Shown here piece by piece: positions 1 to 52,813 of a stretch of DNA of 52,813 bases; position 1 is the stretch's first letter; every line of letters begins with the position of its first letter. The DNA comes from a virus. A program made the position numbers and the translations under genes. The notes beneath the pieces are model-generated. The model was not told where the DNA came from. It saw only the letters and a list, made by a program, of their open reading frames with translations, and did not search any database. Location of the stretch: the IMG/VR virus record IMGVR_UViG_3300025291_000002. One strand, given 5' to 3'.

Positions 1-127
1 AACCGCTTTTGGTTTAATCCTCTTCAGCAACGCCTTATAGAGCCGCGTTCGCCACCAGAAGACATTAAACACTCTGGAAACACGCGCGGCATGGAATGCT
101 ACGAGACCCGTTTCCGATTGGAGTACA
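1..127. repeat. Terminal overlap copy A, identical to 52687..52813
   Basis: Base-by-base comparison of the window start and end shows 127/127 identity. It lies inside a coding frame that runs through the junction. Confidence 0.95.
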
Positions 128-651
128 CTGGCGATCCGTTCGAAGGCTGGGTGGCGACGATAGCGCGGAGCGACACGCCCTAGTATCGCACTCAAGGCGA
201 TGATGGATGTATCATCAAACACCGGCGGAACCTTAGCCATAGCGCGAATGTCATCATAACCAGGTACGTCCGACGACGATATTTTCGCGCCCGCATCCAT
301 GCGATCGAGAATGTCATCGAAATAAATATCTCGGTATTTGTCGCCATCAAAAACGCGGAGCGCTGAGTCGAAAGTTTTGCAGACATACGCGGCCGGACGG
401 ATGCCTCTGACTACCTGAAAAGCCCCGGTTCGCAGGCTCTTCAGAATGCTCGATCTCCCCACATTTTGACGCCGAGGAGCAAGGTTTTGTAGCCCTAACG
501 AGACCTCGAAACGCACCAACTGCCAGGGGTTAACTCCGTCGACACGCAACCCGAGCAACCCATTCCGAGTCTCAACATCACGCACAAGGCGGGAGACCTC
601 TGCCTCTGTCATTCGTTTGTGATCAAGCATGCGCCACCGGAAGTCGTTCAT
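1..651 (-). CDS. N-terminal 217 codons of a junction-spanning GT-B-like polysaccharide transferase (continues at 52686 down to the stop at 51901)
   Basis: My translation shows the minus-strand frame open from ATG 651 (MNDFRWRMLDHKRMTEAEV...) to nt 1. It is in phase with ORF 51901..52758 once the overlap is collapsed, giving 478 aa combined. It is absent from the ORF track because it has no in-window stop. The start codon is uncertain (no clear SD). Confidence 0.7.
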   Translation of the reverse strand, partial: MNDFRWRMLDHKRMTEAEVSRLVRDVETRNGLLGLRVDGVNPWQLVRFEVSLGLQNLAPRRQNVGRSSILKSLRTGAFQVVRGIRPAAYVCKTFDSALRVFDGDKYRDIYFDDILDRMDAGAKISSSDVPGYDDIRAMAKVPPVFDDTSIIALSAILGRVAPRYRRHPAFERIASVLQSETGLVAFHAARVSRVFNVFWWRTRLYKALLKRIKPKAV

Positions 652-725
652 GTGTATTGTCTGCGCAGGAGGTGGACATGTTCTTTCACAAGTTGTAGGT
701 GAGATGGGCTATCTAACCTGTCTAA

Positions 726-1985
726 GTGGAAACTTCTAGCGGCAACTGCAGAAACATGATTTTTCGTCTGATAGTCGCGGCAGCGTTGTTCTTTCCAGTT
801 GTCGGATCGTTCCTATTAGAGCTCGGGGTCTGGGGGCAAGGAATTAATCAGTTCGGCAATCCGAACGGTGCAACATTAGCCATGATAGCTTTTGTCGCAA
901 TGTTCTTGGCGGTTATCGCATGGCTTGAGCGAACGAAGCTGTTGAGCCAGCTTGGAGCAGGCCGCGCAGTTTCAGCAGATTTAGATCTAACCCCTGTTCG
1001 CTGTGCGGTGCTTCTCGTCCCGATGGCCGGATACGTGCTGTTCGTGATCGGAGGCATTCATACGATACTGGATGGCGTGGGAGCTGGCAAATTCCGGGCC
1101 GAGCTCGGCAATGGCGGCGCGCTCGGATATTTGATCCTGAAGTTCTATGCCCCCGCGCTGTTCAGCGTGACCGCATTGTGCATGGCGACCACACGCCGCT
1201 TGTCACTGTTTTCAGTCGCAAGCCTAGTGCTTTTGGCCGTCATATCCATCTCTTTTGGTTACAAGAGCGCGATTATAATGGCGCTGCTCCCCACGGCAGT
1301 CCTGCTGTTTTGGAACTGCCGCTTGCGATCTGTCCTCTATTTGGGCGGAGCAGTGACAGTAGCAATTGTCGTCTCTTATTGGTTTATGAAGCCCGACGAC
1401 CAGGTGAAGATCCCGCTTCTGGCTGCCATTGGGTACCGCGCATTTGTCCTGAACGCGGAAGGCGCCTGGAAAATATGGGATATCTACAGCAGTGGCGGAG
1501 ATCTCCCGAGCTACCTAAACACTCTGCCAGCAGTTTTCGGTGACCGCGTATACTCGGCCCTGACGGGCATCACGCGATCCGATCCAGAAGCCTGGGTCAT
1601 GTCGCATTTCAGTTTGATGGCAACGCACCTTTCTGGCTACAAGCCCGAATATCTCCTTGCAACGGGACACAACAACAGCGCGGGCGTGATGGCGGAAGGT
1701 ATCATTGCCGGCGGGGTCGCCGGGATGTTGGCGTTTGCAGCTGTTGCCGCAGTGATCACGAACGCCCTCTACCACTTTATCGAGAACCGGCTGGAAGCTC
1801 AGGATTTCGCAGCAGCGTCGGTAGCGGCGTGCTATTTCGTCTACAGCCTGATCGCATGGATGATCGGCGGAGGCGTTGTCGAAATCATTCACCTCTCCAT
1901 AATCGTAGGAACGTTGAGCAGTTTTGCATTGCTCAGGTGGACCACCGGATGGAGACCATCCTGGCGCCTTCAGGAGGCATCATGA
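726..1985 (+). CDS. Polytopic membrane protein, Wzy-type repeat-unit polymerase-like
   Basis: 419-aa ORF (GTG 726, alternative ATG 756 MIFRLIVAAALFF) with many hydrophobic helices and one large loop. It sits in the polysaccharide cassette. The family assignment is by architecture only. Confidence 0.5.
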   Translation: METSSGNCRNMIFRLIVAAALFFPVVGSFLLELGVWGQGINQFGNPNGATLAMIAFVAMFLAVIAWLERTKLLSQLGAGRAVSADLDLTPVRCAVLLVPMAGYVLFVIGGIHTILDGVGAGKFRAELGNGGALGYLILKFYAPALFSVTALCMATTRRLSLFSVASLVLLAVISISFGYKSAIIMALLPTAVLLFWNCRLRSVLYLGGAVTVAIVVSYWFMKPDDQVKIPLLAAIGYRAFVLNAEGAWKIWDIYSSGGDLPSYLNTLPAVFGDRVYSALTGITRSDPEAWVMSHFSLMATHLSGYKPEYLLATGHNNSAGVMAEGIIAGGVAGMLAFAAVAAVITNALYHFIENRLEAQDFAAASVAACYFVYSLIAWMIGGGVVEIIHLSIIVGTLSSFALLRWTTGWRPSWRLQEAS

Positions 1986-3346
1986 CCGATCAGACCGCTT
2001 CGCTATCATATTCGCCCACCACCCTGTGGGACTGGTATCGGCGCGGCGGCGACATTCTGGTCTACCTTGCAATTTCCCTGAGCATCGCAATCTTCGTCGG
2101 CCAAGAGAGGATGATCTCTCGGGGCGATTTGGCGTATTGGCTTCTCGTCGGCCCTGCCTTGCTCATGCCGTTGCTTCGCGTCCGGCAAACGATGGAGAAC
2201 CTCCTGCTTGGGGTAGCGCGCCCCATCGCCGCATTCGGCATTCTCAGCGGGGTTTGGTTCCTCTTCCAACGCGACTTTGGCGCCATCCCCCCAATCTTCC
2301 TGATCGTTTGGGTGGCTGGTTGGGCCTGCCGCTCTGAAGCAAGGATAAGCGCGAGAACTCTATTCGCCTTAACGTTGGTCTTCTATCTTGCGGGCAGCGC
2401 ATCCTTCCTCATGCAGCCGCCCTATGGAAATTTCCCTTGGTTGATGGAGCATTTAGCCCAACCCGAGGCCGCCGAAGGCAACAGCGATGTTGAACTTGCA
2501 GTGCCGGAACAAGAGCGTGCTGGATTGAACATCAACGCCTGGGGCATCCTGCCAAACCAGACGGCGGTAGCATTCCAGCCATGGCGGATATCCGTAACTC
2601 CAAACATCGCCACCTCGGGGATATTCTCCCTGATGGTTCTGCTGGTGCTCGTTCGCCGCTTCAGACCGAAGCCGATCGAGGCCCTGACCGCAGTCACCGC
2701 CATTTATTTCGCGATTCTATCTTTCGTTAGGGCGGTGTTCGTCAGCATAGCACTCTTTGCGGCCACACTAGGCATTATGGCCGTATTGCCCAATCGTCCT
2801 GGCTTGCGGGTCGCTGCAGCCATGTGCATGACTGTCGGCCTGACCCTGTTCGTGGCTTTCTCTCCGTTTCTGCTTTATGCCCTGCAGGATTGGAGCATCT
2901 TGTCTCGAATGTTCCTTCGCGGGCAGACTGGCATGTCCACAGCCGATATCTATCGGCAGATGTACCGCCCGTGGCTCTGGGGCGAGCACATGAAGCTATT
3001 CTGGAGCAGCCCCTATCTAATGGGATATGGCAGCGAGCTCGCCACCAGCGCCCTCAAAAACATCATTAACGCGGGCCAGATGCGATCGGATTCCGTTTCG
3101 TTCCTAACGCGGATGATCGCAACTTATGGCATCCCAGCTTTCGGGATCATCATCTTCCTTGTTGAGCGGTGCTATCGCCATGCAAAGGACAACGACATCT
3201 GGGCCGTGGCGGTCCTGTCAGTCATGATCTGGCTGATGATGAGCTGGGGCAGCATCTTCCACCCCAGCAACGGCATGTTCGCGCTTGCGTTTCTTCTTGT
3301 CGGAAAAGGATCAAGAGCATTGGATGGCGACGCGCGCGCCCAATGA
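1982..3346 (+). CDS. Polytopic membrane protein, O-antigen ligase/polymerase-like
   Basis: ATG 1982 overlaps the upstream stop (ATGA); the ORF-track start at 1829 lies inside the upstream gene. About 454 aa, multi-pass, with a late loop WLWGEHMKLFWSSPYLMGYGSE. Confidence 0.5.
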   Translation: MTDQTASLSYSPTTLWDWYRRGGDILVYLAISLSIAIFVGQERMISRGDLAYWLLVGPALLMPLLRVRQTMENLLLGVARPIAAFGILSGVWFLFQRDFGAIPPIFLIVWVAGWACRSEARISARTLFALTLVFYLAGSASFLMQPPYGNFPWLMEHLAQPEAAEGNSDVELAVPEQERAGLNINAWGILPNQTAVAFQPWRISVTPNIATSGIFSLMVLLVLVRRFRPKPIEALTAVTAIYFAILSFVRAVFVSIALFAATLGIMAVLPNRPGLRVAAAMCMTVGLTLFVAFSPFLLYALQDWSILSRMFLRGQTGMSTADIYRQMYRPWLWGEHMKLFWSSPYLMGYGSELATSALKNIINAGQMRSDSVSFLTRMIATYGIPAFGIIIFLVERCYRHAKDNDIWAVAVLSVMIWLMMSWGSIFHPSNGMFALAFLLVGKGSRALDGDARAQ

Positions 3347-3877
3347 TCACCACTCTTCGATCTCCACTGCATAGTTGAGGGAAAATGAGAACGCCGATCC
3401 AAGCGCATTGGCATTGATCGGCGTGAGGCCGGGGTTCCCGCTGTTCTGCACACCGATCCTCAGGAATGCATCACCGCCGAGGCCAAGCAAACTGATGTCT
3501 GCCGCAAGGGCTGTCGACAGGATCATCCTGCCCGCGATGAAGCGAAAGCTGTTCCACTGGCTGTCGATATGGACGTTACCATCAGACCCGTTGTAGCCGA
3601 TCGATACGCGAGCCTCTACTGCGGACGTGGAGCCGGCAGTAGCGTCGACAACGCCATAGAGAATGTTGCCAACGCGCCAAGATCTCGCCTTGACTAGAGA
3701 CAGCGATCCGAACCCCGTCAACGTCGGCGTATAAGCGACTGGTGCTGAGACAAACGGGATGTCGGCCGGGATGCCGAGCAGCGTCCTGATCGCGGCAGCA
3801 TCCGAGGCCGACAGCACCTGCCTCCCTATTGCGGTCGCATTCTGGATCCTGCCTTGGTCGAGCTTTGTGTTTGCCAT
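3347..3877 (-). CDS. Small tail-fibre-like / tail-fibre accessory protein
   Basis: 176 aa and the last gene of the tail operon. The N-terminus (MANTKLDQGRIQNATAIGRQVLSASDAAAIRTLLGIPA) resembles phage fibre N-termini. Function inferred from position. Confidence 0.45.
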   Translation of the reverse strand: MANTKLDQGRIQNATAIGRQVLSASDAAAIRTLLGIPADIPFVSAPVAYTPTLTGFGSLSLVKARSWRVGNILYGVVDATAGSTSAVEARVSIGYNGSDGNVHIDSQWNSFRFIAGRMILSTALAADISLLGLGGDAFLRIGVQNSGNPGLTPINANALGSAFSFSLNYAVEIEEW

Positions 3878-3888
3878 GTCAATCTTCC

Positions 3889-5886
3889 TCAGCAGGCGTT
3901 CGGGGTTGAGAGGATCAAGTTGGCGACGACATCGTGTCCGAGAGGTCCGATGTGCTGCTCATCAACGAATAGGGCTGCGTAGGCCGGCGCAGACATGGAC
4001 GCTTTGAGATCCATGAAACGCTCGTACACCGGCACGTAAATCACGCCAGACATCGCACCGACTTCCTGCTGAGCAGTCAGATAGGGACCAAACCCTGCGA
4101 GCATGCCAGCGTTCTGAGTGGCAGTGGCCGACGACAGCGTCACGGTGATGCCGGCTGCCTGGGCTTGGTTGACCATCCACGCCAGGTCGTCCTTCATGCT
4201 GGCTGCTGAATAGCCATCGAAGAAGTCGTTGATGCCAGTCATGATGTGAACGGCCTGAGGCTGACGGGCCACGACATCGGCCGTGAAGCGCGCGCGCATC
4301 TCCGATGCGTTTTCACCGGGCACGCCTTTATTGAGACCAAACGCCCACCTGCGCCCGTTCTGGACCTTCGTCCGGAACGAGTCCTTTTCGGTAACCCCAG
4401 GCCTGACTGCATAGGTGACGCTATCGCCCATCCAGACGAGGTCACGCCTTACACCGGCTGGATACATACCAGAAAGGCGCAGCGTGCCTGCAGCATCATA
4501 GGGGAGCGGGCCACCGCCTCCGTTGGCTCGGTTCTGAAACAGAATGTCTGTCCTGTTGGCGAGTTGTACCGCTTGGATGTCATCGCCTGTAAATGTGATC
4601 CCCTGGGCAGCGATGACCACAGGTGTATTGATGCCAGCTGAAATATACGGCAGCCCATCCACGTACATGTCGCCCGACCCGGTGCCTCCGGTCCAGACAA
4701 GTTCGAGGTTGAAGAACACCATCCCACTCACGAGACGGTAGGTGCCAGACTGGACGCTATAGGTTGCCGTTCCCGCGACAGTGCCGCCCTTGACAACCGG
4801 CATGATGCTGCCGAACTCCCCGAAGAGGCTGACGACACTCGGGCCGAGTTTTGAATACTCGACGGACTCGTCTTCAATCTGCTCGTTGCCGACGGCCCCC
4901 AGCTGGAGTTGATCTGTCCCGACCGTGCCATCGCTGGGTGCGCCGAGCTCTCGCACTTCCGTTTGGACAACGGCCTCCCATGGGATGCCGGCCCCCGGAT
5001 CATCAACGAACGTGAAGGTGTTGCCGCTGATCGTGTAGACCGACGAGGTGTGGTCCTGGATAACGCCGCCGAGCTTGATATCGATGTTGTTGATGCTACC
5101 GATCGCCACCCCGACGTTGTACGGGCCGACGTTGGCCGGCGCTCCGGTACCTGTCGTGCCGCGCGCAGACGCTCTGTTATAGGTGACGGCGCTCTGTGCG
5201 ACGAGTGCCCACTCCTTCGCAGACTTTGTGAGTGCACCACCAGGCAGCGTTCCTTCTGCCCACGCCTCCGCGAGAGCCGCCGCCGCTTCAGATGCAGCCT
5301 GTATCGCCGCGCTCGCAATGTCGCTGGCGAGGCGGAACTCTGAACCGGATTTGACGCCAAGAACCTGCATCCCAGCCGTGAAAGCTCCCGCCGGGATCTC
5401 ATTGCCGCTGCTCGTCTTCATCGTCAGAACGGCGTTGCCATTGAACTGGACCGTCACGGGGCTTGCGTCGTTCGCCTCGGCGACGTCGAGAATGACCATC
5501 ACTCCATCAACGATAGGGAGCGCCGATGTCGCCTTGATTGCGTTGGACGTTCCCTCGCCGCTGTCGGAAGCCGGGATGAAGGAGAAGGGCAGCGGCAGTG
5601 CATAGACGAACGAGCCCGTGCCAGGTGCACCCAGCTTTCGCCAGATGCCGTTATTTGCCGGCGTCGGGTCTGCATAAACCCAAACGGTCTGATCCGGGTT
5701 GTAGGAGAGATCGGCAAACAGTTCCGCCTTCGTGGCCTTCGCCTCCGAGCCAGCCCCCACGCCGACGGCATTCAGGATCGTCTCGTACTGTGTCAGCAGC
5801 GATCTGATTTGATCCTTGCTCGGCTGATATGGGTCGGCGGAAGGCCCGTCGGCGAACACCGTCGCCGCGTTAGGGGAAAAGGCCAT
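3889..5886 (-). CDS. Tail fibre with C-terminal SGNH/GDSL esterase domain
   Basis: 665 aa. The C-terminal ~185 aa carry SGNH blocks: WMGDSVT (I), GVPGENA (II), GINDF (III), DEQHIGPLGH (V). It lies downstream of the tail-tip protein. Confidence 0.75.
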   Translation of the reverse strand: MAFSPNAATVFADGPSADPYQPSKDQIRSLLTQYETILNAVGVGAGSEAKATKAELFADLSYNPDQTVWVYADPTPANNGIWRKLGAPGTGSFVYALPLPFSFIPASDSGEGTSNAIKATSALPIVDGVMVILDVAEANDASPVTVQFNGNAVLTMKTSSGNEIPAGAFTAGMQVLGVKSGSEFRLASDIASAAIQAASEAAAALAEAWAEGTLPGGALTKSAKEWALVAQSAVTYNRASARGTTGTGAPANVGPYNVGVAIGSINNIDIKLGGVIQDHTSSVYTISGNTFTFVDDPGAGIPWEAVVQTEVRELGAPSDGTVGTDQLQLGAVGNEQIEDESVEYSKLGPSVVSLFGEFGSIMPVVKGGTVAGTATYSVQSGTYRLVSGMVFFNLELVWTGGTGSGDMYVDGLPYISAGINTPVVIAAQGITFTGDDIQAVQLANRTDILFQNRANGGGGPLPYDAAGTLRLSGMYPAGVRRDLVWMGDSVTYAVRPGVTEKDSFRTKVQNGRRWAFGLNKGVPGENASEMRARFTADVVARQPQAVHIMTGINDFFDGYSAASMKDDLAWMVNQAQAAGITVTLSSATATQNAGMLAGFGPYLTAQQEVGAMSGVIYVPVYERFMDLKASMSAPAYAALFVDEQHIGPLGHDVVANLILSTPNAC

Positions 5887-19802: not shown

Positions 19803-20837
19803 TCAGGTGCTGACGCTATAGAAGACGCCGGACCGGCCGTTGATGTCGGCGCGGATCTCGATGCCCAGCGCGTTCATGACGAGGAACTGATAGTTCGCCG
19901 TCGGCGTGTTGCGGGGCATCGCCGTGGTGTTGGTCGCCATGCCGATCAGCGGGCGGATGTACTCAGCCGACGGCACGAAGCCGAAGAACTGGTTGCCCGT
20001 CAGCTCGAAGGATACCGCGATCTTGTTGATGCGGCGGTTCAGCAGAAGCTGGGACAGACGCGTGCCGAGCGTGATGCCGGCTGCCGTGTTGACCTGGCGG
20101 TCAAGGTTTCTCGCGATCTCCGGGGAGATGTAGAGGTTGACCTTGCCGGCGATGTAGTTGGCATCCAGCATGGCGCCGAACGGGCCGTTGAAGAATGCAT
20201 CGATCGCCGGCCAGTCGGCCGAGGTGAGGTCGATGTTATTACCGGACGGGCCGATGTTGATCGACTTCGAGTAGGGCGAGGTCTTGATGCCGTAGCCCGT
20301 GTAGCCCTGGAAGACGATGCTGGCATCGCCGTTCAAGACATAGAGGGCGTTGTCGCGGCGGATCTTCGCCGTGATGGCTTCCTGGTCGTCGGAGAGAGCA
20401 TCGAAGTTCTCGGACTGCAGGGTGTTCCACTCGCGCCACTCGCGGCCATAGCCGGACGAGAAGATTGGCACGGGCGTTCCCCGGTAGTCATAGGCGACCT
20501 TGTCGAGGCCGATCGGGACCTGACCGGAGATCGACCGCACGACCGCGCCGGCATCACCGGAGACGCGATTGAGCGCCACGATCTTGCCGATGTTGACCGT
20601 GCGGGCGAGCGGCATGAGATCAGCCATCCAGACCTGACCTTCGTCCGCACGCATGACGCGGCGGGTCGTGTCGTCGAGGTCGAACCAAGCATCGCGGGGA
20701 AGCACGGCAGAGGCGTTCTGCAGTTCCGCGAAGTGCGCTTCCACATTGTGGAAGTGCTGGCGCTCGGCAGAGACTTCTCCCCACCACTGCGCATGCGCCG
20801 CGGAGTTCGCGACAAGCTGCTCGTCGAAATAACGCAT
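19803..20837 (-). CDS. Major capsid protein
   Basis: 344 aa with strong SD (TAAGGAGA). It follows the scaffold and decoration genes. No motif can be verified by eye. Confidence 0.7.
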   Translation of the reverse strand: MRYFDEQLVANSAAHAQWWGEVSAERQHFHNVEAHFAELQNASAVLPRDAWFDLDDTTRRVMRADEGQVWMADLMPLARTVNIGKIVALNRVSGDAGAVVRSISGQVPIGLDKVAYDYRGTPVPIFSSGYGREWREWNTLQSENFDALSDDQEAITAKIRRDNALYVLNGDASIVFQGYTGYGIKTSPYSKSINIGPSGNNIDLTSADWPAIDAFFNGPFGAMLDANYIAGKVNLYISPEIARNLDRQVNTAAGITLGTRLSQLLLNRRINKIAVSFELTGNQFFGFVPSAEYIRPLIGMATNTTAMPRNTPTANYQFLVMNALGIEIRADINGRSGVFYSVST

Positions 20838-46048: not shown

Positions 46049-46323
46049 AAAAGCCCGCCTGCCTCGCTTATGGCGTTGCGCCCCGGCTTATCCCGGTCGA
46101 AGCGGCAGCCGCTTATTGCAGCATGACCATTGAGGAATTTGAAGATTTCTATTCAGGACGAGCAATCAAGTCCCGATCCGGGAAAACTCTCTACGATATT
46201 CGCCTGATTGACACATGGCTTGATCAGCGCGTCAGCATGTCAAAAGGTGCCACCGACCCGAAAACCTTGCTGAAAGGGCTAGGAGTTGGCGCGACCAAGA
46301 GTAAGACGGCGCATGTGGTGTGA
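46045..46323 (+). CDS. Excisionase-like small DNA-binding protein (positional)
   Basis: 92 aa, directly upstream of and overlapping the integrase. The segment LIPVEAAAAYCSMTIEEFEDF looks HTH-like. Confidence 0.5.
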   Translation: MKKPACLAYGVAPRLIPVEAAAAYCSMTIEEFEDFYSGRAIKSRSGKTLYDIRLIDTWLDQRVSMSKGATDPKTLLKGLGVGATKSKTAHVV

Positions 46324-47356
46324 CGGGATCAAGGGGATCAAGTCGTATCAGATCGGCGACGTCTGGTATCATTACGATCGGAAGAGCGGGAAGAAGATCG
46401 AGGCCCAAAGGGGCACGCCTGCCTTCAAAAAAGAAGTCGAGCGACTTCGAGGCAAGCCGAAAGCAGATGACTTCTACGGCACCATAGACGGTGCCATTCT
46501 GCTTTACGATCAGGATGACAGATGGAAATTCCTGCGCGAGAGCACCAAGGCGGATTACCGGAAGGTGCTGACCTGGCTGGAGACGGTTGGCTCTACGGCG
46601 CTTATCGACGTGACAAAGCCGTTTGCTGTCGAGCTGCGTAATCGCACATCAGAGGAAAAGGGATATCGGTTCGCCAACAAGACGTTGACGATCCTGAAGC
46701 TGTTAATGGATTGCGCGGAAGAGGCAGGCTGGATTTCTGAGCATCGCATCAAGGGCATCCCCTACGCAAAACGCCCACAAGAGCTCCCACAGCGCAACAA
46801 GCCGTGGACGGCTGATGAGTGCCGCCACATGCTCGCTAACGCCTCAGCGACTGTCCTGGTGCCTTTGGCGCTATGCATCTACCTCGGCTTCCGAATAGGG
46901 GACGCGCTCACGATCAGCTCCAAGGATTATGACGGCCGATCGATCCGCAAGGAGACCAACAAGCGTGGCGTCTTCGTATCGATCCCCGTACCGGCTCCGC
47001 TGAAAAGGATTTTGGACAATCGCCCTCGTGGTGATTCGGTAACGCTCGCCTTGAAGGCGGACGGCACGCCATGGGCTTACGGAGGCTATCACCAGCGGTT
47101 CAACGAACTGCGCGCCAAGCTTTCGACCGCCACCAAAGACAGGCCGATTCTCGTCCGCAGCGATATAACCCTTCACGGATGCCGCCATACGGTAGCGACG
47201 ATCCTCCGCGATGCGGGCTACAGCACGGAACAGGTGGCGCAATATCTCGGCCAGGAAGATGAAACGATGCCATTGCTGTACGGCAAGAGCGCAGAATTGA
47301 ATGCCGTAACGGGGCCAATGGCGGAAATTATCGCCCTGAAAGTCGGCGCGTCTTAG
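46313..47356 (+). CDS. int: Tyrosine recombinase / phage integrase
   Basis: C-terminal catalytic region LHGCRHTVATILRDAGYSTEQVAQYLGQEDETMPLLYGK (H-x-x-R ... Y). The start is ATG 46313 or TTG 46286. Confidence 0.9.
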   Translation: MWCDGIKGIKSYQIGDVWYHYDRKSGKKIEAQRGTPAFKKEVERLRGKPKADDFYGTIDGAILLYDQDDRWKFLRESTKADYRKVLTWLETVGSTALIDVTKPFAVELRNRTSEEKGYRFANKTLTILKLLMDCAEEAGWISEHRIKGIPYAKRPQELPQRNKPWTADECRHMLANASATVLVPLALCIYLGFRIGDALTISSKDYDGRSIRKETNKRGVFVSIPVPAPLKRILDNRPRGDSVTLALKADGTPWAYGGYHQRFNELRAKLSTATKDRPILVRSDITLHGCRHTVATILRDAGYSTEQVAQYLGQEDETMPLLYGKSAELNAVTGPMAEIIALKVGAS

Positions 47357-47407: not shown

Positions 47408-47455
47408 TGGAGGCCTCGCCCGGAATTGAACCGGGGTACAAGGATTTGCAGTCGC
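47408..47455 (-). other. attP core: 3' portion of tRNA-Cys(GCA), from the anticodon loop to CCA
   Basis: The minus strand reads GACTGCAAATCCTTGTACCCCGGTTCAATTCCGGGCGAGGCCTCCA. Parts: anticodon loop CTGCAAA, T-arm CCCGG-TTCAATT-CCGGG, acceptor 3' strand CGAGGCC, discriminator T, CCA. No matching 5' acceptor strand lies upstream. Confidence 0.75.
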
Positions 47456-47483
47456 CTCTTGGTTATTGAAAAGCCTGCATCAA

Positions 47484-49852: not shown

Positions 49853-50199
49853 CAGCGGCTCCCGGTGTCATTGGTGTTGAAGGGACGAGACGGCGGATCG
49901 TAGGGCTCGACAAGCGGCTCGCCGTCTACCGCTACCGGCGGCGAGGCATACGGAAGCCCCGTGCGGGTCGCGAGGATCGCGGCAATATCCTGGGCCGTCG
50001 CAAAACCGGTATAGAAAAACGCCAGCGAGATAATGAGAACGATCCAGCCCCACGCGATCGTCTGGTTGACGACGGTGTCAGGCGCGTTCTCCATGACCAT
50101 CAGCCGCCAGCAGGCGAAGACGATCAATGGGAAGATGACCGCACGCCGCCATTGCCAGCCAGGCTCGCCGCTGCGCTTCGCCTCTCTCGGCTTCGGCAT
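49852..50199 (-). CDS. Holin candidate (two TM helices)
   Basis: 115 aa with AVIFPLIVFACWRLMVM and IAWGWIVLIISLAFFYTGFA. It directly follows the endolysin. Confidence 0.55.
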   Translation of the reverse strand: MPKPREAKRSGEPGWQWRRAVIFPLIVFACWRLMVMENAPDTVVNQTIAWGWIVLIISLAFFYTGFATAQDIAAILATRTGLPYASPPVAVDGEPLVEPYDPPSRPFNTNDTGSR

Positions 50200-50792
50200 C
50201 AGGCCGCATCCTGCAGGGCGTCATAGAAGCGCTTGGCATAGCCGGCGATATCGTTGGCGCGATCGAGGCCGTTGATAATTTTGCGGGCGTTCACCCAGTC
50301 CGAGCTTTTCGGCGTGAAGTAATCCCCCAGCTTCTTGCCGGTGAAGAGCCCGCGCGCCATGCCTTCGAACATGATCCGGACGGCAACGTCATCCTGCATC
50401 GCCGCGTCTGGATTAACGACCAAGTCGACGCCGACGAGCTTGCTGAAGGTGGTGTAGTTTCGCCGGCCTGTCAGCTGGACGAGACCCCTGCCCGCAAACC
50501 TGACGCCATCGCCGGTCTGAGTGTTGCCGAGATCGGCGGCCACCTTCGGCCTCTGGCCTTTCGGGTCGTACATGCGGAAGAAATAATCCGTGCCGCCACG
50601 CTCGTGGATCGGCTGCATGGTCTGCCCGGTTTCGTGGAAGGCCGTTGCCAGCATGTAAGCCAGCCAGCGAGGATCGATGAAAGCCTTTCCGGCCTCGTCC
50701 AGCACTGCCTCCATGCCATTGACTTGCGACTGCGAGAGCGACCCGCCGAACAACGACGAGCGAACGCCCGCATAAAAATGCGCACGATTCAT
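50199..50792 (-). CDS. Endolysin, glycoside hydrolase family 19-like
   Basis: AFHETGQ ... FAGRGLVQLTGRRNY matches the GH19 chitinase/lysozyme signature. Confidence 0.75.
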   Translation of the reverse strand: MNRAHFYAGVRSSLFGGSLSQSQVNGMEAVLDEAGKAFIDPRWLAYMLATAFHETGQTMQPIHERGGTDYFFRMYDPKGQRPKVAADLGNTQTGDGVRFAGRGLVQLTGRRNYTTFSKLVGVDLVVNPDAAMQDDVAVRIMFEGMARGLFTGKKLGDYFTPKSSDWVNARKIINGLDRANDIAGYAKRFYDALQDAA

Positions 50793-50897
50793 TGGTGATG
50801 TCTCCGATGTTGAAAGAAAGGCACGCCGATGCGCGCCAGTGGTGCGGTGAGCGTCTATTTGCTAATGGCGTCTGCAAATCCGACAAATGGAGCAGAT

Positions 50898-51914
50898 ATG
50901 AAGATCGATGCCCGGGTGACAACAGTCGACTTTGCTCGCGGGCTTATGGCGTGCGCCGTAATGATCTACCATCTACTCTACTGGGAAGGCATCGCAGACA
51001 TCGAGCGTATAGGGTTCTATGCGGTCTACGGTTTTTTCGTTATCAGCGGGTTTTCACTGCACATTGCCTATACTGGCAAGCTCGGTAATTCCGCTCAATT
51101 GTGCAAGTTCGCAATTCGCCGGTATGCCCGGATCGCGCCTTTGTTTTATACAGCGCTATTTTTTTACTTGCTTCAAAACGGACTCCCTGACCGGTGGCCG
51201 CTCCTGCTTCTGGCAAACTTCTCACTGGGGTTGGGTTTTATGAACCCCGGCGACACATCTATTCTAGTTGGGGGATGGTCTATCGGTGTGGAGATAGTCT
51301 TTTATGTCTTCTTCCCGTTGGCCCTAATGTTGGCTGCGCAATCTGTTCGGCGAATAACTGCAATTGCGGCAGTGGCACTGGTAGCCCAGATAATCTTCGT
51401 GAATTACGTCCTCGCCGGCCTGAACAGCACAGGAGAAGGATGGGTGCGATATACCCAACCAGTATCCTTCGCTGGATATTTCGTGATGGGCATGTTTTTT
51501 GCAGAGCTTTATAGAGCACGACCGTACATGAAGGGTGCGCCCGTCATGCCGAAGCTAGCATTATACTGCCTCGTCCCTTTCGTTGTGATCCCGGCTTCTG
51601 AGCCATTGGATCTTCTGCGAGGATGGCGAGGCCTTATTCTGGCGGCATCAACAATTGGCCTCGTCGGCGCCGCGGCGTTTATTGAAGAGCCAACGGGTCG
51701 CTTGCGCCAAGTCGCAAAGAAGTTAGGAGACCTCTCCTATTCGATCTACCTACTTCACCCGCTCGTGTTCATTTTTATTCGCGATCACGGTGTCCCGACC
51801 TCAACAGTCAGGATAGTCGCGACAATTGTGGTCTCTCTAATCGCAGCTAATCTTCTACACCGGTTCATCGAGATGCCGTGCCGTAATTTGGGGCGGCGGA
51901 TCACCTCGGGATGA
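50898..51914 (+). CDS. Acyltransferase-3 family membrane O-acyltransferase
   Basis: The start MKIDARVTTVDFARGLMACAVMIYH is typical of the family. About 10 TM helices. The ORF-track start at 50829 is probably too long. Confidence 0.75.
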   Translation: MKIDARVTTVDFARGLMACAVMIYHLLYWEGIADIERIGFYAVYGFFVISGFSLHIAYTGKLGNSAQLCKFAIRRYARIAPLFYTALFFYLLQNGLPDRWPLLLLANFSLGLGFMNPGDTSILVGGWSIGVEIVFYVFFPLALMLAAQSVRRITAIAAVALVAQIIFVNYVLAGLNSTGEGWVRYTQPVSFAGYFVMGMFFAELYRARPYMKGAPVMPKLALYCLVPFVVIPASEPLDLLRGWRGLILAASTIGLVGAAAFIEEPTGRLRQVAKKLGDLSYSIYLLHPLVFIFIRDHGVPTSTVRIVATIVVSLIAANLLHRFIEMPCRNLGRRITSG

Positions 51915-52813
51915 GGGATGCCAGGTTGTCGGCAAAGCCTTCTTCGAAGAAGTGCCCACTCACGCCATCAGGAACAGCCGGAAACTGGCGCGCCTGAACA
52001 AGGGTGGCGAGAGCTTCCGGGGATCGCACCAGCACGACGCCTTCGCTGCCTAGGACGTCAATCACAGATTCATGTGTTTCCAGCGCTAGAATGCCTGTGG
52101 GTGTCCCAATGCCGAGGGACTCGTAGTGACACGTCGAGGAGATGCTCAGATGCATGTCAGAGAGTGCGATCAACTGGTGGGTCCCAACTTCCGACTGGCC
52201 AGAGACAATGTTGATGCGTCGGTCGTCACCGAATTTTTCCCGATAGAAGCTTTCATCTCCATTGTAGGCAGGATGCATCTTGAGGTTCAACTTTACGTCA
52301 GGGCCACATTTTTGAAGGAAGCCGGCAAGAAATTCCCCCAGCTCTTCCATCGCAACGCCCTGCGCGGTAATTGTGAGGACAGGTGAGCCACCTGGCTTCC
52401 ATTCCCGTTCCCTGATACGTCGAGCATTATCGATGTAGGACGCACCAACGCACGCAATACGACCCTCTTTTTCGAGGAGCGTTCCGGACAGCGAAGCCTT
52501 AGAATGTTCGCCGTAAACCGCGAAAGTAGACGGGGCAAGCAAACCCATCCTCAGGTCTGGAGCGATGTCGTCCGGCAGGATGTTGGGGTGGATATTAGTG
52601 CAGACCCCATGCTGCACCTCGACAAATGGGATGCCCAACTGATCCGACGCATGCATCAAAGCGAACGCGCCGCTGTCGGCAGCGAGAACCGCTTTTGGTT
52701 TAATCCTCTTCAGCAACGCCTTATAGAGCCGCGTTCGCCACCAGAAGACATTAAACACTCTGGAAACACGCGCGGCATGGAATGCTACGAGACCCGTTTC
52801 CGATTGGAGTACA
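51901..52813 (-). CDS. C-terminal part of the junction-spanning GT-B-like polysaccharide transferase (unique part 51901..52686)
   Basis: Contains VQHG and LKMHP motifs, like the HG/HP pair of TagF-type and capsule-polymerase-type GT-B enzymes. The frame continues upstream across the window junction into 1..651. Its stop overlaps the acyltransferase 3' end by 14 nt. Confidence 0.7.
   Translation of the reverse strand, partial: VLQSETGLVAFHAARVSRVFNVFWWRTRLYKALLKRIKPKAVLAADSGAFALMHASDQLGIPFVEVQHGVCTNIHPNILPDDIAPDLRMGLLAPSTFAVYGEHSKASLSGTLLEKEGRIACVGASYIDNARRIREREWKPGGSPVLTITAQGVAMEELGEFLAGFLQKCGPDVKLNLKMHPAYNGDESFYREKFGDDRRINIVSGQSEVGTHQLIALSDMHLSISSTCHYESLGIGTPTGILALETHESVIDVLGSEGVVLVRSPEALATLVQARQFPAVPDGVSGHFFEEGFADNLASLIPR
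52687..52813. repeat. Terminal overlap copy B, identical to 1..127
   Basis: Same 127-nt string as the window start. Confidence 0.95.

What the first reader, a model, noticed from the sequence alone, without database searches (positions are those of the whole stretch)
50793..52813. Lower-GC surface-polysaccharide remodelling cassette between the tail and lysis modules (continues at 1..3346)
Four genes interrupt the late region between the last tail gene (3347) and the endolysin (50792). They are an acyltransferase-3 O-acyltransferase (50898..51914), the GT-B-like transferase (51901 through the junction to 651) and two polytopic Wzy/O-antigen-ligase-like proteins (726..1985, 1982..3346). Composition differs from the phage backbone. 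The sample line 51061..51120 has 29/60 G+C, against 41/60 for 20041..20100 in the capsid gene. The gene content resembles known prophage serotype-conversion cassettes, such as Pseudomonas phage D3 (polymerase plus O-acetylase) and the Shigella and Salmonella oac/gtr phages. This one is larger: two polymerase/ligase-like proteins plus a GT-B enzyme. It could rewrite an O-antigen, EPS or capsule repeat in a lysogen.
Basis: partly seen in the sequence, partly recalled or inferred. Interest (0 to 1): 0.7.

Follow-up and report, generated by a model that had tools for sequence, protein, structure and literature searches.

The report
Prophage cassette that remodels Rhizobium surface polysaccharide
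A temperate Rhizobium phage carries, between its tail and lysis genes, four foreign genes (an O-acetyltransferase, a soluble sugar-transferase-like enzyme and two polymerase-like membrane proteins) that most likely change the host's surface polysaccharide. This is a larger and differently built version of known phage serotype-conversion cassettes.

Summary
The window is a circular 52,686-bp temperate phage with a 127-bp assembly overlap, and metagenomes also show it integrated in a Rhizobium sp. Between the last tail gene and the GH19 endolysin lie four genes:
- A: an AT3 acyltransferase (Pfam E 9e-25).
- B: 478 aa, soluble, GT-B fold (AF2 pLDDT 92).
- C and D: two unrelated 10-TM proteins.

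These 5.2 kb are the lowest-GC stretch of the genome (54.9% against 60.1%). C and D miss family thresholds themselves. However, 14 of 16 C relatives hit the repeat-unit polymerase model TIGR04370, and 14 of 43 D relatives hit Wzy_C.

Chromosomal relatives of B, C and D sit in Wzx/Wzy-type loci for legionaminic-acid and acetamidino sugars. There B is paired with either a C-like or a D-like protein, never both. B weakly resembles the Tannerella nonulosonic-acid transferases and keeps their HP motif.

The closest isolated phage lacks the cassette. Two other phages carry 4-gene and 3-gene versions in the same slot, under purifying selection. GenBank phages hold no B, C or D.

Best reading: a serotype-converting moron that finishes, re-polymerises and O-acetylates an O-antigen or capsule unit. 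It is a new variant of a known kind, and the function is inferred.

The parts
50898..51914 (+). Gene A: AT3-only membrane O-acyltransferase, 338 aa
   Evidence: PF01757 E 9.1e-25, 87.8 bits. It has R14-X10-H25, FFVISG and R75-x-x-R78 motifs (motif definitions from PMC9558356). About 7 or more hydrophobic segments. It lies antisense to the flanking late genes. 70% identical in prophage L006 and 83% in IMG/VR phage L016. dN/dS 0.12-0.14.
51901..52686 (-). Gene B, 3' part (C-terminal residues): soluble GT-B-fold enzyme
   Evidence: The ORF is continuous with 1..651 once the 127-bp overlap is removed. AF2 pLDDT 91.9. Foldseek against PDB finds GT-B enzymes, E about 1e-10. The invariant K353-x-H355-P356 and H396-x-S398-x-x-S401 motifs lie here. 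The 3' end overlaps the 3' end of A by 14 bp.
1..651 (-). Gene B, 5' part (start ATG at 651..649, N-terminal residues); 478 aa in all
   Evidence: an identical 478-aa protein is called on 17 metagenome contigs. No TM segment.
52687..52813 (.). Assembly overlap, identical to 1..127 (mark of circularisation)
652..755 (.). Divergent intergenic region between B (minus strand) and the C-D pair (plus strand); presumed promoter region
   Evidence: Read from the sequence. The sigma-70 consensus scan gave nothing above chance.
756..1985 (+). Gene C: polytopic membrane protein, 409 aa (alternative GTG start at 726); Wzy-type repeat-unit polymerase candidate
   Evidence: About 10 TM segments with a loop of about 110 aa. 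The window copy scores 15 bits on TIGR04370 (cutoff 40), but 14 of 16 family members hit it, best E 1.3e-13. The only credible PDB fold match is the WaaL ligase 7tpg_B (prob 0.95, TM 0.35). C-like proteins are the only polytopic partner of B in chromosomal loci L021, L029, L030 and L032.
1982..3346 (+). Gene D: polytopic membrane protein, 454 aa; candidate from the Wzy_C (O-antigen polymerase/ligase) superfamily; start overlaps the stop of C
   Evidence: About 10 TM segments. The window copy has no Pfam hit, but 14 of 43 family members hit PF04932, best E 1.9e-8. 76-81% identical to proteins at the edge of Rhizobium O-antigen loci (L012, L023). D-like proteins follow B directly in L044, L045, L046 and L048, and follow it closely in L019 and L043. 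dN/dS 0.06.
50793..50897 (.). Intergenic region between the endolysin start and the start of A; holds a terminator-like hairpin on the minus strand (50837..50820)
   Evidence: This is a consensus match only; 7 such sites were found in the region against 2.6 +/- 1.8 expected.
3347..3877 (-). Left flank: last gene of the tail module, 176 aa, no family match
3889..5886 (-). Tail fibre, 665 aa, with a C-terminal SGNH/GDSL esterase domain (residues 484-629)
   Evidence: PF13472 E 7.2e-12. The N-terminal ~190 aa are shared with the fibres of RHph_TM3_3_3, L006 and L016.
50199..50792 (-). Right flank: GH19 endolysin, 197 aa
   Evidence: PF00182 E 3e-6. 84% identical to the endolysin of Rhizobium phage RHph_TM3_3_3.
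46286..47356 (+). Tyrosine integrase (establishes the temperate lifestyle)
   Evidence: PF00589 on the identical contig L001
47408..47456 (-). attP core: the 3' ~49 nt of a tRNA-like sequence (anticodon loop CTGCAAA), at which phage and host sequence diverge
   Evidence: Comparison of L001 with L002 and the sequence itself. ARAGORN finds no complete tRNA.

Best explanation
This is a lysogenic-conversion ('moron') cassette of a temperate Rhizobium phage that alters a Wzx/Wzy-assembled surface polysaccharide, either O-antigen or a K-antigen-type capsule.

Proposed steps, all inferred:
1. B, a soluble cytoplasmic GT-B enzyme, adds or re-links a sugar on the undecaprenyl-diphosphate-linked repeat unit that the host builds. 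The sugar is probably the terminal one. My best guess for the donor is the host's CMP-activated legionaminic-acid-type nonulosonic acid.
2. The host flippase exports the altered unit.
3. The phage's own polymerase-like proteins C and/or D join the altered units, which the host polymerase may no longer accept.
4. A O-acetylates the polymer on the periplasmic side.

The lysogen would then display a changed serotype. The usual consequence is that phages using the original polymer, including this phage with its esterase-bearing tail fibre, no longer adsorb.

Shown here: the gene structures, the fold and family relationships, foreign composition, insertion into a conserved phage slot, purifying selection, and the chromosomal contexts of the homologues. 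Inferred: every biochemical step and the phenotype.
For: Phage and lysogeny:
- The contig is circular, with a 127-bp overlap.
- The same phage is found as a circle and joined to host genes at a tRNA-like attP.
- The host-side PopZ/DUF2497 protein is identical to that of Rhizobium sp. BK512.

Foreign insertion:
- The cassette is the lowest-GC 5.2 kb of the genome.
- The closest isolated relative, RHph_TM3_3_3 (endolysin and 738-aa tail protein both 84% identical), has only a 93-aa ORF in this slot.

Real genes:
- Cassettes in the same tail-lysis slot occur in an R. laguerreae prophage (L006: D-C-B-A, 70-84% identical) and in an IMG/VR phage (L016: D-B-A, no C).
- dN/dS is 0.06-0.14.

Gene identities:
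- A is AT3 with its motifs.
- B has a GT-B fold and no TM segment.
- The C family matches TIGR04370 in 14 of 16 members.
- The D family matches Wzy_C in 14 of 43 members.

Context of homologues in 33 species-representative genomes:
- The recurrent order is Wzx - B - HisH - HisF - [C-like or D-like] - WbuX - GT4.
- NeuB/LegG/PtmE/CMP-synthetase genes lie within 10 kb in 16 of the 33 loci.
- No locus has both a C-like and a D-like protein.
- B is the only non-GT4 transferase candidate in these loci.
- Rhizobium sp. BK196 clusters with this host by its PCMT protein and has native B (45%) and D (76%) homologues.

B and nonulosonic-acid transferases:
- 31 of 40 close and 32 of 52 distant family members weakly match NF046086 (best E 9.6e-13).
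- NF046086 models the Tannerella forsythia Pse/Leg-derivative transferases (PMC5420450).
- The HP motif those enzymes share with bacterial sialyltransferases is invariant in B at H355-P356.

Strand layout: A, C and D lie antisense to the late operon, as morons often do.
Against: - Nothing was measured: no expression data, no polysaccharide chemistry, no adsorption data.
- The window copies of C and D fail every curated threshold. C has no significant structural match in PDB or BFVD.
- The match of B to NF046086 is far below the cutoff (25.7 against 200 bits) and covers only the C-terminal Rossmann domain. Its best fold matches are UDP-sugar 2-epimerases rather than transferases.
- The tightest partner of B is the WbuX/HisH/HisF amidotransferase trio, including a B-WbuX fusion (P0169), rather than NeuB.
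- Distant B homologues sit in loci with no nonulosonic-acid genes nearby.
- B lies on the late-gene strand, so it may be expressed during lytic growth.
- No Iap-like inhibitor of the host polymerase was found.
- No explanation for carrying two polymerase-like proteins has been tested.
Confidence: 0.62

Rival explanations
1. One of the two polytopic proteins, most plausibly D, is an O-antigen ligase (WaaL type) rather than a polymerase. The phage would then supply a polymerase (C) plus a ligase (D) that attaches the altered polymer to lipid A-core.
For: Pfam Wzy_C (PF04932) covers both WaaL ligases and Wzy polymerases. The most distant D relative is named 'O-antigen ligase family protein' in Legionella waltersii. 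This reading would explain why the phage carries two such proteins with no detectable similarity to each other. In Rhizobium loci D lies at the edge of the cluster rather than inside it.
Against: In L019, L043-L046 and L048 a D-like protein sits within a few genes of B, directly after it in four of them. It is the only polytopic candidate in a cluster that has Wzx, which is the position expected of Wzy. In L019 it occupies the exact position that C-like proteins take in L021, L029 and L032. The 3-gene phage version (L016) has D but no C, so D alone suffices with B and A.
Confidence: 0.2
2. B is not a glycosyltransferase but a nucleotide-sugar-modifying enzyme with a GT-B fold: 2-epimerase-like, PseG-like hydrolase, or a helper of the WbuX amidotransferase. 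It would change which sugar the host transferases incorporate.
For: The top Foldseek hits are UDP-GlcNAc and UDP-GlcNAc3NAcA 2-epimerases (E about 4e-10). The only PDB sequence hit, although insignificant (E 0.96), is a UDP-GlcNAc 2-epimerase. There are weak PseG hits. One family member is fused to a WbuX domain (P0169). B is nearly always followed by HisH-HisF and a WbuX gene. Several loci that have WbpB/D/E-like genes show no separate WbpI-type epimerase among the called genes.
Against: Where B aligns with the epimerase motif HVEAG it reads E-x-Q-H-G, so the catalytic Glu is replaced. TM-scores are only 0.43-0.49 normalised to the query, and TagF/TarL and CalG transferases score almost as well. 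63 of 92 family members scanned weakly match the nonulosonic-acid transferase model NF046086. In the phage, B is surrounded only by polymer-assembly genes and no sugar-nucleotide pathway. An IS-flanked chromosomal copy (L018) is again paired with a Wzy_C protein.
Confidence: 0.17
3. The cassette acts during lytic growth rather than in the lysogen. For example, it could alter the surface of the infected cell so that released virions or competing phages do not adsorb to it.
For: B is co-oriented with the late tail and lysis genes and lies directly between them. No promoter for any of the four genes could be identified.
Against: A, C and D are antisense to the late operon. A terminator-like hairpin separates the cassette from the endolysin on the late strand. 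Re-polymerising an O-antigen takes generations of growth to replace the existing surface, which suits a prophage better than a lytic burst. This last point rests on general knowledge of seroconverting phages.
Confidence: 0.1
4. The cassette is inert cargo: genes captured from a host O-antigen locus that are no longer expressed or functional.
For: D is 76-81% identical to chromosomal Rhizobium genes, which suggests recent capture. No promoters were identified.
Against: All four ORFs are intact in 17 metagenome contigs. They are conserved in the same slot in three phage backbones, with pN well below pS and dN/dS 0.06-0.14. The start of D is translationally coupled to the stop of C, and A has a good ribosome-binding site.
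Confidence: 0.05

Closest known systems
Pseudomonas aeruginosa phage D3 seroconversion module (iap, wzy-beta, oac); from my own knowledge of Newton et al. 2001, not read here
   Same: Both are temperate phages carrying an O-antigen polymerase-like membrane protein plus an AT3-only O-acetyltransferase. The expected outcome in both is an altered linkage and acetylation of a Wzy-dependent O-antigen, and superinfection exclusion.
   Different: No Iap-like inhibitor peptide was found here. This cassette adds a 478-aa cytoplasmic GT-B enzyme and a second, unrelated polymerase-like protein. There is no sequence similarity: tblastn of B, C and D against 50,697 GenBank phage records, which should include D3, found nothing.
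Shigella/Salmonella phage O-antigen modifiers: Oac of Sf6 and SfII, and the gtrABC clusters of SfV, SfX and P22
   Same: A has the AT3-only architecture of Oac, with the R/K-X10-H and RXXR motifs. Both are prophage-borne.
   Different: No GtrA, GtrB or GtrC-like protein is present: no bactoprenol-linked glucosyl translocase or GT2 hit appeared in Pfam. Here glycosylation would occur on the cytoplasmic side through a GT-B enzyme, not in the periplasm through Und-P-glucose. A has only distant relatives (24-36% identity) in four phage records.
Tannerella forsythia nonulosonic-acid transferases Tanf_01245 / TFUB4_00887 / BFO_1060 (NCBIfam NF046086; Tomek et al. 2017, PMC5420450)
   Same: Both are GT-B/TagB-like enzymes. 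They share a C-terminal nucleotide-binding domain with an HP motif, which is invariant in B at H355-P356. Both have genomic neighbours that make pseudaminic or legionaminic acid derivatives.
   Different: The match is far below the family cutoff (25.7 against 200 bits) and limited to about 100 residues. The D/E-D/E-G motif is not conserved in B. B is about 110 aa longer, with a different N-terminal half. The Tannerella enzymes act in protein O-glycosylation, not in polysaccharide repeat units.
Legionella pneumophila Lag-1 (AT3-only 8-O-acetyltransferase of polylegionaminic acid)
   Same: Both are AT3-only enzymes associated with a legionaminic-acid-containing O-antigen (PMC9558356). A D-family relative occurs in Legionella waltersii.
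   Different: The acceptor sugar of A is unknown.
Chromosomal Wzx/Wzy O-antigen clusters with acetamidino sugars (P. aeruginosa O5 wbp cluster, E. coli O145 wbuXYZ/fnl/neu cluster); from my own knowledge
   Same: The chromosomal homes of B, C and D contain WbpA/B/D/E-like, FnlA/B-like, HisH/HisF and WbuX genes (TIGR03573 above cutoff), plus Wzx, GT4 transferases and a nonulosonic-acid pathway.
   Different: The phage carries only the unit-finishing and polymerising genes and none of the sugar-nucleotide pathway. It must therefore depend on the host's precursor pools.

Membership tests
Acyltransferase-3 (PF01757), AT3-only type such as Oac and Lag-1 | Match to the AT3 domain above Pfam's gathering score | tested here: met
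   87.8 bits against a cutoff of 31, covering residues 10-318 of 338
Acyltransferase-3 (PF01757), AT3-only type such as Oac and Lag-1 | R/K-X10-H motif in TM1 and RXXR motif in the first cytoplasmic loop | tested here: met
   R14-X10-H25 and R75-Y-A-R78 are present, and FFVISG as well. Motifs as defined in PMC9558356.
Acyltransferase-3 (PF01757), AT3-only type such as Oac and Lag-1 | No fused SGNH domain | tested here: met
   The protein is 338 aa and the AT3 domain fills it; there is no SGNH or GDSL hit
GT-B fold glycosyltransferase superfamily (gene B) | Two Rossmann-like domains with a GT-B topology | tested here: met
   AF2 pLDDT 91.9, pTM 0.89. 310 PDB chains match at E <= 0.001, and all of the listed top matches are GT-B enzymes.
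GT-B fold glycosyltransferase superfamily (gene B) | Glycosyl-transfer activity, as opposed to epimerase or hydrolase activity in the same fold | not testable with these tools
   The best fold hits are 2-epimerases. Family-level hits are to a transferase model.
BFO_1060 family nonulosonic-acid transferases (NF046086) | Score above NCBIfam's curated cutoff | tested here: not met
   25.7 bits against 200; only residues 345-448 align. The best family member reaches E 9.6e-13.
BFO_1060 family nonulosonic-acid transferases (NF046086) | HP motif and D/E-D/E-G motif of bacterial sialyltransferases | tested here: inconclusive
   The HP motif is invariant (H355-P356). No conserved D/E-D/E-G is present, and a conserved E-x-Q-H-G stands in the N-domain instead.
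Oligosaccharide repeat-unit polymerase (TIGR04370, Wzy type), gene C | Score above the curated cutoff | tested here: not met
   The window copy scores 14.9-15.3 bits against a cutoff of 40. 14 of 16 family members match at E <= 0.1, best E 1.3e-13.
Oligosaccharide repeat-unit polymerase (TIGR04370, Wzy type), gene C | Polytopic membrane protein with a large extracytoplasmic loop, encoded in a Wzx-containing cluster | tested here: met
   About 10 TM segments with a loop at residues 207-315. C-like genes lie between HisF and WbuX in loci L021, L029 and L032, which also have Wzx.
Wzy_C / O-antigen ligase-polymerase superfamily (PF04932), gene D | Match to PF04932 | tested here: inconclusive
   The window copy gives no hit at E <= 1. 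14 of 43 family members hit, best E 1.9e-8. P0085 and P0104 carry the precomputed domain.
Wzy_C / O-antigen ligase-polymerase superfamily (PF04932), gene D | Polymerase rather than ligase | not testable with these tools
   Context favours a polymerase.
Phage seroconversion cassette of the D3 / epsilon15 type | Temperate phage carrying a replacement O-antigen polymerase | tested here: inconclusive
   The temperate lifestyle is shown. Polymerase identity is supported only at the family level.
Phage seroconversion cassette of the D3 / epsilon15 type | Small inhibitor of the host polymerase (Iap-like) | tested here: not met
   The two intergenic regions of about 105 bp hold no plausible small membrane-peptide ORF. 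An inhibitor encoded elsewhere is not excluded.
Gtr (GtrA/GtrB/GtrC) glucosylation cassette | GtrA flippase, GT2 GtrB and GtrC present | tested here: not met
   No such Pfam hits among the four proteins

The most novel reading that the evidence does not exclude
The prophage carries a portable 'finish-and-polymerise' module that taps the host's CMP-legionaminic-acid pool. B would be the first phage-encoded nonulosonic-acid transferase, and a representative of a large uncharacterised family (at least 300 clusters at 50% identity) of native legionaminic-acid transferases for polysaccharides. C and D would be two alternative, linkage-specific polymerases that co-travel with it, and A a Lag-1-like O-acetyltransferase of the nonulosonic acid. 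Lysogeny would then switch a Rhizobium O-antigen or K-antigen between sialic-acid-like serotypes, with effects on phage susceptibility and possibly on symbiosis.
Probability: 0.28. Interest if true: 0.78.

Novelty: new variant of a known kind. Interest (0 to 1): 0.6.

Why it matters
Serotype conversion by prophages is well known in enteric bacteria and Pseudomonas. There it uses periplasmic Gtr glucosylation, single AT3 acetylases, or a polymerase swap with an inhibitor.

This cassette instead combines a cytoplasmic GT-B enzyme with two unrelated polymerase-like proteins and an acetylase. All of them are drawn from the variable part of O-antigen loci for legionaminic-acid and acetamidino sugars. 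None of B, C or D has a counterpart in 50,697 deposited phage genomes.

If the model holds, three things follow:
- Phages can move the 'last sugar plus matching polymerase' unit of a Wzy pathway as a module. That would be a direct mechanism for O-antigen diversification in rhizobia, where surface polysaccharides govern both phage adsorption and legume symbiosis.
- It singles out a widespread unannotated ~480-aa protein family as a candidate for the largely unknown native legionaminic-acid (or acetamidino-sugar) transferases.
- It offers a natural experiment on Wzy specificity, because the phage carries two polymerase families that are mutually exclusive in chromosomes.

Tried and rejected
Searches that led nowhere:
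- Sigma-70 promoter and intrinsic-terminator scans over 1..4000 and 50000..52813 gave counts at or near shuffle expectation, so no expression signal could be assigned.
- Profile searches of the C and D families against PDB sequences gave no hit at E <= 10.
- Foldseek of the C model against PDB gave nothing at E <= 0.001, and only WaaL stood out by probability. Against BFVD viral structures nothing was credible.
- hhalign of the C family against the D family showed no relationship (probability 0.2%), so the two are not recent paralogues.
- DNA search of 1..3400 against GenBank phages found no match. tblastn of B, D and C against the same collection found no match.
- ARAGORN found no intact tRNA in the window or at the integration junction.
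- Literature searches for legionaminic acid in Rhizobium O-antigens, and for rhizobial prophage seroconversion, found no direct precedent in the held library.

Ideas considered and dropped:
- A Gtr-type cassette: no such domains are present.
- B as a strict marker of nonulosonic-acid loci: only 16 of 33 loci have NeuB within 10 kb, and distant homologues lie next to GFO_IDH oxidoreductases and GT4 enzymes with no NeuB.
- The WbuX type fused to B being the NeuB-linked type: it is the other, X368 type.


Full report
**What the window is.**
The first and last 127 bases are identical, so the contig is a circularised assembly of 52,686 bp. Structural genes match Rhizobium and Sinorhizobium phages at 72-76% DNA identity. 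The closest isolated relative by endolysin and by the 738-aa tail protein (84% each) is the temperate Rhizobium phage RHph_TM3_3_3.

The exact B protein is called on 17 metagenome contigs. In some the phage is in circular order with a tyrosine integrase. In another the lysis end is joined to host genes for PCMT, PopZ/DUF2497 and ValRS. Phage and host sequence diverge at a tRNA-3'-end-like core at window ~47408-47456. The host-side PopZ/DUF2497 protein is identical to that of Rhizobium sp. BK512. This is therefore a temperate phage of a Rhizobium sp. that has been observed as a prophage.

**Checking the observation.**
- A is 50898..51914 (+).
- B is on the minus strand from 651 through the junction to 51901. 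It is an uninterrupted 478-aa ORF only after the 127-bp duplicate is removed.
- C is 756 (or GTG 726)..1985 (+).
- D is 1982..3346 (+), with its start overlapping the stop of C.

The cassette is flanked by the last gene of the tail module (3347..3877, minus strand) and the GH19 endolysin (50199..50792, minus strand).

The 5,240-bp cassette has 54.85% GC against 60.1% for the rest, and it is the single lowest window of that size on the circle. GC3 rises from A (0.575) through B (0.597) and C (0.632) to D (0.695), against roughly 0.68-0.86 for clear backbone genes.

B is co-oriented with the late genes. A, C and D are antisense to them.

**What the genes are.**

*Gene A.* A is a bona fide AT3 acyltransferase (PF01757, E 9e-25). 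It has the AT3-only architecture and the R-X10-H and RXXR motifs.

*Gene B.* B has no Pfam family and no TM segment. Its AlphaFold model is confident (pLDDT 91.9) and is a GT-B fold. The best PDB matches are UDP-sugar 2-epimerases (E ~4e-10), followed closely by TagF/TarL and CalG transferases.

A profile of its family recovers 5,997 clusters (50% identity level) at E <= 0.001, and 300 full-length relatives at E <= 1e-30, so it is a large unannotated family. Across members 23-34% identical, the invariant positions are H243 (in E-x-Q-H-G), H355-P356 (in K-L-H-P) and S401 (in H-x-S-I-S-S).

63 of 92 members scanned weakly match NF046086. That model describes the Tannerella forsythia pseudaminic/legionaminic-acid derivative transferases, which are GT-B/TagB-like and carry the sialyltransferase HP motif (PMC5420450). 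The window copy scores 25.7 bits against a cutoff of 200, so B is not a member of that family. It does share the family's nucleotide-binding domain.

*Genes C and D.* Each has about 10 TM segments and large loops. Neither window copy passes a curated threshold.
- 14 of 16 C relatives match TIGR04370, the oligosaccharide repeat-unit polymerase model (best E 1.3e-13).
- 14 of 43 D relatives match Pfam Wzy_C (best E 1.9e-8).
- The only credible fold match for C is the WaaL ligase (prob 0.95, TM 0.35).
- C and D show no profile-profile similarity to each other.

**Where the genes come from.**
A scan of one genome per species found B relatives in 33 loci from Rhizobium, Hoeflea, Devosia, Afipia, Bradyrhizobium, Nitrobacter, several Betaproteobacteria, Chloroflexota and others. 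Mapping neighbours by tblastn and Pfam gives a recurrent order:

legionaminic-type pathway genes (NeuB, LegG-like epimerase, PglD-like acetyltransferase, PtmE-like NTP-transferase, CMP-synthetase) with a WbuX/HisF/HisH trio; WbpB/D/E-like genes; Wzx; B; HisH; HisF; one polytopic protein; a second WbuX (TIGR03573, above cutoff); GT4 transferases; FnlA/B-like genes.

- NeuB lies within 10 kb of B in 16 of the 33 loci.
- A WbuX of the second type lies within 10 kb in 22 of the 33.
- The polytopic protein is C-like in L021, L029, L030 and L032. It is D-like in L019, L043-L046 and L048. No locus has both.
- In Rhizobium leguminosarum-type loci the D homologue lies at the edge of the same cluster (L010, L011, L012, L023).
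- Rhizobium sp. BK196, which clusters with this phage's host by its PCMT protein, has native B (45% identical) and D (76%).
- B is the only transferase candidate in these loci that is not GT4.
- An IS-flanked chromosomal module in Rhizobiales isolate AFS079129 again pairs a B copy (63% identical to the phage's) with a different Wzy_C protein (L018).
- One family member is a B-WbuX fusion (P0169).

**Distribution in phages.**
RHph_TM3_3_3 has only a 93-aa ORF between its last tail gene and its endolysin, so the cassette is an insertion into a conserved slot.
- An R. laguerreae prophage (L006) has D-C-B-A in the same slot, at 84, 70, 70 and 70% identity.
- The single IMG/VR hit (L016) has D-B-A without C, with A 83% identical but B and D only 47-50% identical.

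The cassette is therefore modular and mosaic, independent of the phage backbone. Between copies, pN is far below pS and dN/dS is 0.06-0.14, so all four genes are maintained by selection. tblastn of B, C and D against 50,697 GenBank phage records finds nothing, and A has only four distant relatives.

**How it most likely works.**
All steps here are inferred.

The phage carries no sugar-nucleotide pathway. It carries only paralogues of the unit-finishing transferase and of the polymerase(s) from its host's own Wzx/Wzy cluster, plus an acetylase.

The most economical model has four steps. B modifies the lipid-linked repeat unit in the cytoplasm using a host precursor. The host Wzx flips the unit. 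C and/or D polymerise units that the host Wzy may not accept. A acetylates the polymer outside the membrane.

Pairing a terminal-sugar transferase with its matching polymerase makes sense, because Wzy forms its bond to the non-reducing end that the last transferase creates. This fits the observation that B always travels with exactly one polytopic partner in chromosomes.

The donor is most likely a legionaminic-acid derivative, for three reasons: the NF046086-like domain, the HP motif, and B being the only non-GT4 transferase in loci that make this sugar. An acetamidino hexuronic acid or FucNAm-type sugar is a serious alternative, given the WbuX linkage.

Why this phage carries both polymerase families is unexplained. 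The 3-gene version shows that C is dispensable.

**Rivals.**
- D (or C) could be a WaaL-type ligase (0.2).
- B could be an epimerase- or hydrolase-like sugar-nucleotide enzyme (0.17).
- The cassette could act during lytic growth (0.1).
- The cassette could be inert cargo (0.05).

These are laid out separately with their tests. Whether the target is LPS O-antigen or a capsule cannot be decided from sequence.

**Verdict.**
This is a new variant of a known kind, a prophage serotype-conversion cassette. Three things distinguish it: its composition (cytoplasmic GT-B enzyme, two unrelated polymerase-like proteins, AT3), its origin in loci for legionaminic-acid and acetamidino sugars, and its absence from deposited phage genomes. 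Function is inferred throughout.

Noticed in passing
window 3889..5886 (minus strand); L006 6595..7302; L016 5812..6519: The tail fibre next to the cassette ends in an SGNH/GDSL esterase domain (PF13472, E 7e-12, residues 484-629). The two other cassette-bearing phages instead have a separate 235-aa protein just before D. The L016 copy gives a weak GDSL hit (E 0.008), and the L006 copy is 83% identical to it. These phages may deacetylate an O-acetylated receptor polysaccharide, which would tie receptor use to the cassette's acetyltransferase.
   Followed up: partly
window 1..127 and 52687..52813: An exact 127-bp terminal duplication, an assembler's mark of circularisation. Any ORF read across the junction is frame-shifted unless one copy is removed.
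   Followed up: yes
window 47408..47456 (minus strand), next to the integrase at 46286..47356: The attP core looks like the 3' half of a tRNA (anticodon loop CTGCAAA, T-arm, CCA end), which suggests integration into a tRNA-Cys-like gene. ARAGORN finds no complete tRNA in the phage or at the sampled junction.
   Followed up: partly
window 50820..50837 (minus strand): A GC-rich hairpin followed by a T-run lies on the late strand between the cassette and the endolysin start. If it works as a terminator, it would insulate the lysis genes from transcription of B or require antitermination.
   Followed up: no
protein P0169 (860 aa, metagenomic): A natural fusion of a B-family domain (residues 17-479) with a WbuX N-acetyl-sugar amidotransferase domain (residues 488-824, 290 bits). 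The WbuX part is of the type encoded next to B (48% identical), not the type next to NeuB (25%).
   Followed up: partly
L018 6379..17056 (Rhizobiales isolate AFS079129): A second, IS-flanked B copy (63% identical to the phage's) lies 15 kb from the native one. With it are an ABC transporter, an unannotated 462-aa protein and a different Wzy_C protein (450 aa, PF04932 E 8e-13). This is a non-phage mobile version of the 'transferase plus polymerase' pair.
   Followed up: partly
L015 4849..6009 (Aurantimonas MAG): A 386-aa DUF2793 protein is encoded inside a legionaminic-acid biosynthesis cluster, between NeuB and the LegG-like epimerase. As far as I recall, this domain also occurs in phage tail-fibre-like proteins.
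   Followed up: no
window 665..698 (plus strand): In the divergent B/C intergenic region, a perfect AGGAGG lies 7 nt upstream of a 6-codon ORF (MFFHKL, ATG at 678). It could be a chance match or a leader peptide.
   Followed up: no
L008/L009 12847..13179: A 110-aa ORF between HisF and WbuX matches only the last ~50 residues of D (43% identical). It looks like the remnant of a D-like polymerase gene in a locus that otherwise shows no polytopic partner for B.
   Followed up: no
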